Shown piece by piece: positions 1,391 to 1,448 of a stretch of 1,721 nucleotides of DNA. This stretch comes from Escherichia coli (GTDB taxonomy: Bacteria; Pseudomonadota; Gammaproteobacteria; Enterobacterales; Enterobacteriaceae). The notes below the pieces were generated by a model, which was not told the origin of the DNA, ran no database searches, and was given only the letters and a program-made list of their open reading frames with translations. Made by a program: the position numbers and the translations under genes. Numbering within the stretch: position 1 is the first letter of the stretch; the number at the start of each line of letters is the position of its first letter. Location: NCBI RefSeq assembly GCF_003334815.1, contig NZ_QOWO01000095.1; one strand, given 5' to 3'.

Positions 1391-1410
1391 TACTGTATAT
1401 GTATCCATAT
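1391..1410 (+). promoter_or_regulatory. LexA operator (SOS box) overlapping the predicted transcription start of the colicin gene
   Basis: TACTGTATATGTATCCATAT: the left half, TACTGTATAT, matches the LexA consensus TACTGTATATATATACAGTA exactly. The right half is degenerate (CTG-N10-CAT instead of CTG-N10-CAG). Its position, just after the -10 and ahead of a colicin gene, fits the known SOS control of colicins. Confidence 0.7.
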
Positions 1411-1448
1411 GCGTAAGCAGTTAATTCATTTGTTTTCCTCAGAGGATG

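What the first reader, a model, noticed from the sequence alone, without database searches (positions are those of the whole stretch)
1391..1420. Colicin SOS operator appears to be a single LexA box with a degenerate right half-site
The left half-site is perfect, but the right half reads CAT instead of CAG. A possible second overlapping site (CAT 1406-1408 ... CAG 1418-1420) has a 9-nt spacer, not 10, so it does not fit the CTG-N10-CAG rule. I recall that many colicin operons carry two overlapping LexA boxes for tight repression. A single imperfect box would predict leakier SOS repression, perhaps compensated by the Fur input.
Basis: partly seen in the sequence, partly recalled or inferred. 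Interest (0 to 1): 0.3.

Follow-up and report, generated by a model that had tools for sequence, protein, structure and literature searches.

The report
Single weak LexA box, colicin Ia

Summary
The window is an IncI-type plasmid segment: the yagA 3' part, a terminator, and the colicin Ia (cia) promoter and first 86 codons. It is 100% identical to E. coli plasmid p95.

The sequence TACTGTATATGTATCCATAT (1391-1410) is a LexA box with a maximal left half-site and a right half reading CAT. CAT...CAG (1406-1420) has a 9-nt spacer.

A LexA weight matrix finds this one site:
- It scores 14.7 bits, with a chance expectation of 0.006 per window.
- The left half scores 15.4 bits and the right half -0.7 bits.
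- There is no second box. The best overlapping candidate scores -3.6 bits.

The same matrix finds both boxes, at +14 or +15, in 10 of 10 dual-box bacteriocin operators: colicins E1, K, 10, E9, B, N and A, pesticin and two others.

The half-site never reads CAG in any promoter record examined, out of about 1,260 plasmid records that carry the promoter. It reads CAT or, in a minority, CAC.

A Fur box (17 of 19 matches) lies at 1333-1351. Among 13 bacteriocin promoters compared, only Ia and Ib have one.

Published work already states that Pcib has one LexA site, that Fur acts as a "double lock", and that iron chelation alone induces as strongly as mitomycin C.

Verdict: interpretation supported, already known, low interest.

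The parts
1..1183 (+). 3' part of yagA (protein YagA), which runs off the left end of the window; the stop codon ends at 1183
   Evidence: ORF list; annotation of the 100%-identical plasmid NZ_CP023356.1
1210..1253 (+). Intrinsic-terminator-like hairpin (13 pairs) plus T run, downstream of yagA
1333..1351 (+). Fur box GTTAATGATAATCACTATC, 17/19 matches to GATAATGATAATCATTATC, 8 nt upstream of the -35
   Evidence: 2 mismatches; 0.00 expected by chance. Found only in Ia/Ib among 13 bacteriocin promoters. Iron-dependent repression is published for the Ib promoter.
1360..1365 (+). -35 hexamer TTGACA
   Evidence: Invariant in the alignment with other colicin promoters.
1383..1388 (+). -10 hexamer TAAATT, 17-nt spacer
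   Evidence: Same geometry as colicins K, E1, B, N and E9.
1391..1410 (.). Single LexA (SOS) box TACTGTATATGTATCCATAT, predicted to cover the transcription start
   Evidence: 14.68 bits, top hit of the window. Positions 1391-1407 are invariant in 11 sequences except A1392G in one. An identical box sits in the S. Typhimurium colicin Ib plasmid, whose promoter is mitomycin-C-inducible.
1391..1400 (+). Consensus LexA half-site TACTGTATAT (maximal score)
   Evidence: 15.41 bits, equal to the best half-sites of umuD, sbmC and recN
1401..1410 (-). Degenerate LexA half-site (ATATGGATAC on the - strand; CAT in place of CAG)
   Evidence: -0.74 bits, weaker than the weakest half of all 18 chromosomal sites (polB 2.34, dinG 3.75). 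It resembles the inner half of colicin A box 1 (0.54 bits).
1408..1414 (.). Hypervariable segment: 6 of 7 positions differ among four promoter alleles. It includes the third base of the 'CAG' position (T or C, never G).
   Evidence: population counts
1413..1422 (-). Weak LexA-half-site-like sequence AACTGCTTAC containing the CAG at 1418-1420; not significant and not at a workable distance
   Evidence: 3.87 bits. The chance rate for at least 3 bits is 0.007 per position and strand (0.003 for at least 5 bits), so at most about 0.4 such hits are expected in a 30-nt neighbourhood.
1449..1454 (+). Shine-Dalgarno AAGGAG, 7 nt before the ATG
   Evidence: direct reading
1462..1721 (+). First 86 codons of colicin Ia (cia); runs off the right end of the window
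   Evidence: The CDS in L001 starts at the equivalent position. The full-length protein of the identical plasmid ends ...VEKANKFWGI. Its pore domain is only about 40% identical to the proteins annotated as colicin Ib.

Best explanation
Positions 1391-1410 are the single LexA operator of the colicin Ia promoter. One LexA dimer binds here, directly downstream of the -10 hexamer and over the predicted start site, and blocks transcription until RecA-stimulated LexA self-cleavage during the SOS response. Binding is anchored almost entirely by the perfect left half-site TACTGTATAT. The right half (CCAT/CCAC) gives little specific energy, so the box sits at the weak end of functional SOS boxes. It also lacks the second, overlapping box that gives other colicin operators cooperative, tight repression. 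Tightness comes instead from an independent second repressor: Fe2+-Fur at the Fur box 1333-1351, just upstream of the -35. The promoter therefore behaves as a two-lock, roughly AND-type gate. Either signal alone gives partial expression, and full expression needs both DNA damage and iron limitation. Shown here: the sequence features, the matrix scores, the absence of a second box, the controls and the conservation. Taken from the literature: SOS and iron inducibility for the near-identical Ib promoter, whose LexA box is identical. Inferred: one dimer, weak affinity, overlap with the start site.
For: The window is the colicin Ia locus.

One LexA site scores 14.68 bits with a chance expectation of 0.006, and this is robust to matrix choice. 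The half-site split is 15.41 / -0.74 bits.

There is no second box at any offset and no second strong half-site. The matrix detects both boxes in 10 of 10 dual-operator controls, with box scores of 12.3-24.3 bits.

Promoter geometry is the same as in other colicins: TTGACA, 17 nt, -10, 2-4 nt, then LexA box 1.

Box positions 1-17 are conserved, and the 'G' position reads T or C and never G.

The Fur box has 17/19 matches and is unique to Ia/Ib among 13 bacteriocin promoters.

The literature states one LexA site plus Fur 'double-locking', that Ia/Ib are the only colicins under Fur and LexA, that DTPA alone is comparable to mitomycin C with both giving the maximum, and that both repressors individually confine expression.
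Against: No LexA binding assay or footprint on this operator was available to me; Gillor 2008, Mankovich 1986 and Cascales 2007 could not be read. The transcription start is predicted, not read. The matrix penalty for a non-G at the CAG position rests on pseudocounts, so real affinity could be lower or higher than the score suggests. Colicin A's two boxes each also have a near-zero inner half, so a low half-site score alone does not prove weak occupancy. The published single-copy Pcib reporter showed only 0.01% GFP-positive cells in plain LB, so overall repression is tight in iron-replete medium. Leakiness applies only to the LexA lock taken alone.
Confidence: 0.85

Rival explanations
1. Two LexA dimers still occupy the operator. 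The second would use a non-canonical site anchored on the CAG at 1418-1420 (1403-1422, CCA-N10-CAG, offset +12) and bind cooperatively, as in colicin A, where the inner half-sites are also degenerate.
For: Colicin A's footprint-type dual operator consists of two boxes whose inner halves score about 0 bits, so cooperativity can rescue poor inner halves. AAGCAGTT is conserved in all alleles. The outer CTG...CAG distance in Ia (22 nt) is only 2-3 nt shorter than in the colicin A type (24 nt) and the E1 type (25 nt), from coordinates.
Against: The putative outer half AACTGCTTAC scores 3.87 bits, against 14.0 in colicin A and 11.1 in E1 and E9, which is no better than chance in this neighbourhood. 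The whole 20-mer scores -3.6 bits. An offset of +12 is not seen in any of the 10 dual operators examined; all are +14 or +15. The segment between the sites is hypervariable. Conservation of AAGCAG is not specific, because the entire 5' UTR from 1415 to 1462 is nearly invariant. The literature counts one site.
Confidence: 0.05
2. The Ia/Ib operator is a relic of a colicin-A-like dual operator. An ancestral second box decayed and contracted by 2-3 nt, leaving box 1 with its characteristic CAT inner half and a scar (the hypervariable 1408-1414), while the Fur box took over as the second lock. This is an origin hypothesis and is compatible with the best explanation for present function.
For: The Ia box is almost the same kind of sequence as colicin A box 1: TACTGTATAT + N6 + CAT, 14.7 vs 15.9 bits, halves 15.4/-0.7 vs 15.4/0.5. 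The promoter skeleton is shared with dual-box colicins. A residual CAGTT lies 2-3 nt closer than expected. Variation clusters exactly where the inner half-sites would lie. Single boxes have arisen from dual ones in another lineage (L023, 15-bp deletion form).
Against: No intermediate sequences were found. The distant search with the Ia promoter returned only Ia/Ib-type records. The alignment of Ia to dual operators downstream of TACTGTATAT is ambiguous. The similarity is AT-rich and short, so convergence on the LexA consensus explains it equally well. The Serratia relative has an unrelated single canonical box.
Confidence: 0.2
3. The sequence is not a functional LexA operator at all. SOS inducibility of colicin Ia/Ib would then be indirect (for example through another SOS-controlled factor or plasmid copy effects), and the match to half a LexA box would be fortuitous.
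For: The right half-site violates the near-invariant CAG. No direct binding data were accessible. The window holds a second hit of similar score inside yagA (76-95, 14.0 bits) that has no obvious function.
Against: The position is exactly that of LexA box 1 in all other colicin promoters. The left half is maximal, and positions 1-17 are conserved across more than 1,100 plasmids. The chance expectation is 0.006. The near-identical Ib promoter, with an identical LexA box, is strongly induced by mitomycin C. MEME/MAST annotation by others placed a LexA site in this promoter.
Confidence: 0.03

Closest known systems
Colicin Ib promoter Pcib of pColIB9 / ColIb-P9 (Nedialkova 2014; Spriewald 2015)
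   Same: The LexA box is the same 20-mer. The Fur box, -35, -10 and 5' UTR are essentially the same, with 98-99% identity across the promoter. The published description is one LexA site plus a Fur site upstream of the -35, termed 'double-locking'.
   Different: The window carries the Ia-linked allele: G at 1411 and C at 1354. The downstream toxin is Ia rather than Ib.
Colicin A operator (caa, pColA; L024 117-150)
   Same: Its box 1 is TACTGTATATAAACACATGT: a perfect outer half and a CAT inner half, scoring 15.9 bits against 14.7 for Ia. It occupies the same position relative to the promoter.
   Different: Colicin A has a second box at +14 with a 14-bit outer half-site. Ia has only a 3.9-bit remnant at +12. 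Colicin A has no Fur box.
ColE1-type dual overlapping SOS boxes (colicins E1, K, 10, E9, B, N, pesticin)
   Same: Same promoter skeleton, with the first LexA box 2-4 nt after the -10. The weakest of these boxes (E9: 14.4 and 13.8 bits) are as weak as the Ia box.
   Different: All have box 2 at exactly +15, scoring 12.3-15.4 bits. None has a Fur box.
Single-box bacteriocin operators (Klebsiella tRNase bacteriocin L023; Serratia Ia-like bacteriocin L005)
   Same: One LexA box only.
   Different: Those boxes keep CTG-N10-CAG (24.2 and 15.2 bits). L023 looks like a 15-bp deletion fusing box 1 to box 2. They have no good Fur box.
Colicin K 'double locking' by LexA + IscR (Butala et al., as cited in PMC4675545)
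   Same: The logic is the same: a second, environment-sensing repressor adds to LexA.
   Different: The second repressor differs (IscR vs Fur), and colicin K keeps two LexA boxes.

Membership tests
Enterobacterial LexA (SOS) box, TACTG(TA)5CAGTA | CTG left half-site | tested here: met
   CTG at 1393-1395. The left half TACTGTATAT scores 15.41 bits, the maximum.
Enterobacterial LexA (SOS) box, TACTG(TA)5CAGTA | CAG right half-site exactly 10 nt after CTG | tested here: not met
   Positions 1406-1408 read CAT (CAC in a minority allele). No plasmid with CAG was found. The right half scores -0.74 bits.
Enterobacterial LexA (SOS) box, TACTG(TA)5CAGTA | Whole-site score within the range of validated E. 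coli sites | tested here: met
   14.68 bits, against 13.2 (polB) to 28.2 for the 18 sites. It lies between polB and dinB and is similar to cea box 2 and the E9 boxes.
Enterobacterial LexA (SOS) box, TACTG(TA)5CAGTA | Overlaps the core promoter or start site so that binding blocks RNA polymerase | tested here: met
   The box starts 2 nt after the predicted -10 TAAATT. The start site itself is predicted only.
Enterobacterial LexA (SOS) box, TACTG(TA)5CAGTA | LexA binds it and expression is SOS-inducible | not testable with these tools
   Mitomycin C induction is published for the Ib promoter, which has the identical box. No binding assay was accessible.
[quoted passage not shown] | A second LexA box overlapping the first at +14 or +15 | tested here: not met
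   +15 scores -40 bits, +14 scores -27 bits, and the best offset (+12) scores -3.6 bits. The controls were 10 of 10 positive.
[quoted passage not shown] | Two strong outer half-sites 24-25 nt apart | tested here: not met
   There is only one strong half-site. The second is 3.9 bits at 22 nt.
Fur box (GATAATGATAATCATTATC) | 19-bp match next to or over the promoter | tested here: met
   1333-1351, 17/19 matches, 0.00 expected by chance, 8 nt upstream of the -35.
Fur box (GATAATGATAATCATTATC) | Iron-dependent repression | not testable with these tools
   Published for Pcib: DTPA induces.

The most novel reading that the evidence does not exclude
The Ia/Ib operator may be a colicin-A-type dual operator that lost its second LexA box. 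On this reading, box 1 survives with its typical CAT inner half, a residual CAGTT lies 2-3 nt too close, and the hypervariable scar at 1408-1414 marks the decayed inner half-sites. The lineage would have swapped the second LexA lock for a Fur lock. The right half-site would then be evolving free of LexA constraint, so the operator works as a 'half-operator' whose weakness is tolerated or favoured.
Probability: 0.2. Interest if true: 0.3.

Novelty: already known. Interest (0 to 1): 0.15.

Why it matters
The architecture explains why colicin Ia/Ib production needs both DNA damage and iron limitation. That behaviour underlies Salmonella-versus-E. coli competition in the inflamed gut, and it has already been worked out experimentally. 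This analysis adds only detail:
- A quantitative statement that the box is essentially one consensus half-site.
- The finding that the 'G' of the right half is T or C and never G in any promoter record examined, among about 1,260 plasmids that carry the promoter.
- The observation that the box resembles colicin A box 1 without its partner.

These points could guide operator-engineering or reporter experiments. They do not change the current understanding.

Tried and rejected
- Exact published heterology index. A matrix built from the 18 sites of PMC3009722 does not reproduce the published values (for example umuDC 2.77, recA 4.31). I therefore report bits and ranks only, not a Lewis HI.
- Primary sources. 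Gillor 2008, Mankovich 1986 and Cascales 2007 are not held. A full-text search for the operator sequence itself found no paper. A search for 'single SOS box' phrases found nothing relevant. The supplementary figure with the annotated Pcib sequence is an image only.
- Strict CTG-N10-CAG search. It finds only two coding-region matches with poor matrix scores. The 20-mer palindrome with up to 3 mismatches finds nothing.
- Rfam scan of the window. Nothing beyond chance.
- Homology between the Ia operator and dual operators by multiple alignment. The result is ambiguous downstream of TACTGTATAT, so the relic hypothesis stays unproven.
- A Fur-plus-LexA arrangement in the distant Serratia homologue. 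No convincing Fur box: the best match has 5 mismatches and lies 270 nt upstream.

Full report
**What the window is.** The 1721-nt window matches E. coli plasmid p95 (NZ_CP023356.1, IncI-gamma/K1) at 100% over 1190-1721. About 1,290 other plasmid records match at 90-100%. These are mostly conjugative plasmids of Escherichia, Salmonella and Shigella.

In the annotated record, the window covers the 3' part of yagA, an intergenic region, and the start of a 626-aa 'colicin Ia central receptor-binding domain-containing protein', followed by an oppositely oriented immunity gene. The full protein of the identical plasmid ends ...VEKANKFWGI. Its pore domain is only about 40% identical to the proteins annotated as colicin Ib or 1B. 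The locus is therefore colicin Ia (cia). The ATG is at 1462-1464, preceded by AAGGAG at 1449-1454.

**The observation.** Positions 1391-1420 read TACTGTATATGTATCCATATGCGTAAGCAG. The layout is:
- CTG at 1393-1395
- a 10-nt spacer at 1396-1405
- CAT at 1406-1408
- nine bases at 1409-1417
- CAG at 1418-1420

**The promoter context.** A sigma-70 scan finds TTGACA (1360-1365), a 17-nt spacer and TAAATT (1383-1388), matching 10 of 12 positions. The box therefore begins 2 nt after the -10 and should cover the start site. This last point is an inference.

A Fur box, GTTAATGATAATCACTATC, lies at 1333-1351. It matches 17 of 19 consensus positions, with 0.00 such matches expected by chance.

**Weight-matrix test.** I built a symmetrised LexA matrix from 18 E. 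coli chromosomal SOS boxes listed in PMC3009722. The results for the window were:
- The box at 1391-1410 is the best hit, at 14.68 bits.
- Random sequences of the same first-order composition give 0.006 hits that good per window.
- The score lies at the weak end of the training sites, between polB at 13.2 and dinB at 16.3.
- The left half scores 15.41 bits, the maximum possible and equal to umuD, sbmC and recN.
- The right half scores -0.74 bits, below the weakest half of any training site (polB 2.34, dinG 3.75).
- Changing T1408 to G in silico raises the site to 20.8 bits.

**No second box.** No overlapping site scores above zero with the main matrix. The canonical +15 position (1406-1425) gives -40 bits. 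The only frame that uses the CAG at 1418-1420 (1403-1422) gives -3.6 bits. Across eight other matrices and pseudocounts, including one enriched with colicin boxes, the best second candidate never exceeds 2.8 bits.

A half-site scan shows one strong half-site only. The sequence around the CAG at 1418-1420 (AACTGCTTAC on the minus strand) scores 3.87 bits, which is within chance for this neighbourhood.

**Controls.** The same matrix finds both boxes in every dual-box operator I fetched. Box 2 lies at exactly +15 in colicins E1, K, 10, E9, B and N, pesticin, a Klebsiella tRNase bacteriocin and an unnamed 5.3-kb plasmid bacteriocin. Box scores range from 12.3 to 24.3 bits. In colicin A, box 2 lies at +14. 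The negative result for Ia is therefore not a sensitivity problem.

The colicin E9 boxes (14.4 and 13.8 bits) are individually as weak as the Ia box. What sets Ia apart is the missing partner, not the weakness alone.

Colicin A is the most instructive comparison. Its box 1, TACTGTATATAAACACATGT, also has a perfect outer half and a CAT inner half (15.9 bits; halves 15.4 and 0.5). However, a second box supplies another 14-bit outer half-site 24 nt away. The Ia box looks like colicin A box 1 without box 2.

**Conservation.** About 1,260 plasmid records carry the 75-nt promoter core. Of these, 236 are identical to the window and 990 are 95-99% identical.

Eleven sequences representing the alleles show that box positions 1-17 (1391-1407) are invariant except for A1392G in one. 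That change gives TGCTG, as in the lexA and cea boxes. By contrast, 6 of the 7 positions at 1408-1414 vary among four alleles:
- T-ATGCGT, the window allele
- T-ATACGT, the majority allele, which includes S. Typhimurium pColIB9-type Ib plasmids
- T-GTATAC
- C-ATACGT

An engineered 30-mer ending in CAG found no full-length match among 848 records that carry the exact 29-mer. With the native 30-mer, 21 of 25 evenly spaced rows were full length (CAT). The other 4 stopped at base 29, and the three of those I fetched all read CAC. A further 318 records carry an A1390G allele, among them ColIb-P9 NC_002122.1. All 25 rows sampled from that group read CAT.

The degenerate right half is thus a stable, polymorphic feature of the whole Ia/Ib population, not a mutation peculiar to this window.

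**Fur.** Of 13 bacteriocin promoters compared, only Ia and Ib have a good Fur box (2 mismatches). All the others have at least 5 mismatches. That includes colicin B, which also enters through a TonB-dependent siderophore receptor yet keeps dual LexA boxes.

**Literature.**
- Spriewald et al. [quoted passage not shown] - Nedialkova et al. [quoted passage not shown] - The same paper reports that iron chelation by DTPA 'had a comparable inductive effect' to mitomycin C, with both together giving the maximum.
- Kamensek et al. 2010 relate the fraction of expressing cells to the predicted LexA affinity of dual colicin boxes.

**Mechanism.** One LexA dimer binds at 1391-1410, held mainly by the consensus left half-site, and occludes the start region. 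Fe2+-Fur at 1333-1351 is an independent second lock. Either signal alone partly de-represses the promoter, and both together fully de-repress it. My confidence is 0.85.

The main residual uncertainty is the lack of any accessible binding or footprint data for this operator. A cooperative second dimer at a non-canonical +12 site is unlikely (0.05). So is the possibility that the site is non-functional (0.03).

An origin hypothesis cannot be excluded, but it has no intermediates to support it (about 0.2). It holds that the operator is a relic of a colicin-A-like dual operator and that the hypervariable 1408-1414 is the scar of the decayed inner half-sites.

**Verdict.** The feature is already known, so interest is low.

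Noticed in passing
window 76-95 (and 52-71): A LexA-box-like 20-mer, TACTCTTTATCTGTCCAGTT, lies inside the yagA coding sequence. It scores 12-15 bits in every matrix, almost as high as the real operator, with a chance expectation of about 0.008 per window. A weaker one (8.8 bits) lies 24 nt upstream. Both are conserved in the Ia and Ib plasmids examined. No function is obvious.
   Followed up: partly
window 1408-1414: Six of seven consecutive positions vary among four promoter alleles, while the flanking box positions 1391-1407 and the 5' UTR 1415-1462 are almost invariant. One allele (CCATGTATAC) creates a direct repeat of ATGTAT.
   Followed up: yes
L011 (NZ_CP035818.1 pE7476_162) about 380-420: In this IncF plasmid, unrelated sequence replaces the Fur box, the promoter and the left half of the LexA box. 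An IS66-family accessory gene (tnpA) is annotated roughly 170-190 nt upstream of the breakpoint. The cia coding sequence is left without its native promoter.
   Followed up: partly
L023 (NZ_CP074119.1) 594-613: A Klebsiella tRNase bacteriocin has a single strong LexA box, TACTGTGTATATGTACAGTA (24.2 bits). It looks like the left half of box 1 fused to the right half of box 2, i.e. a 15-bp deletion of a dual operator. This is a different route to a single box from the one in Ia.
   Followed up: partly
L024 (pColA NC_016151.1) 117-150: The two colicin A boxes overlap at +14, not +15. Each has one perfect outer half and a CAT/ATG inner half that scores about 0 bits.
   Followed up: yes
L005 (Serratia proteamaculans NZ_OX461106.1) 2782-2801 and 4960-5319: An Ia-like pore-forming bacteriocin (48% identity in the pore domain) has a single canonical LexA box beginning 40 nt (ending 20 nt) upstream of its annotated ATG. 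A TonB-family protein gene sits next to its immunity gene.
   Followed up: no
window 1210-1253: A strong terminator-like hairpin (13 pairs) with a T run lies between yagA and the cia promoter. It probably insulates cia from yagA read-through.
   Followed up: no
window 1390: An A1390G allele immediately upstream of the box is present in 318 plasmids, including the type plasmid ColIb-P9 (NC_002122.1).
   Followed up: partly
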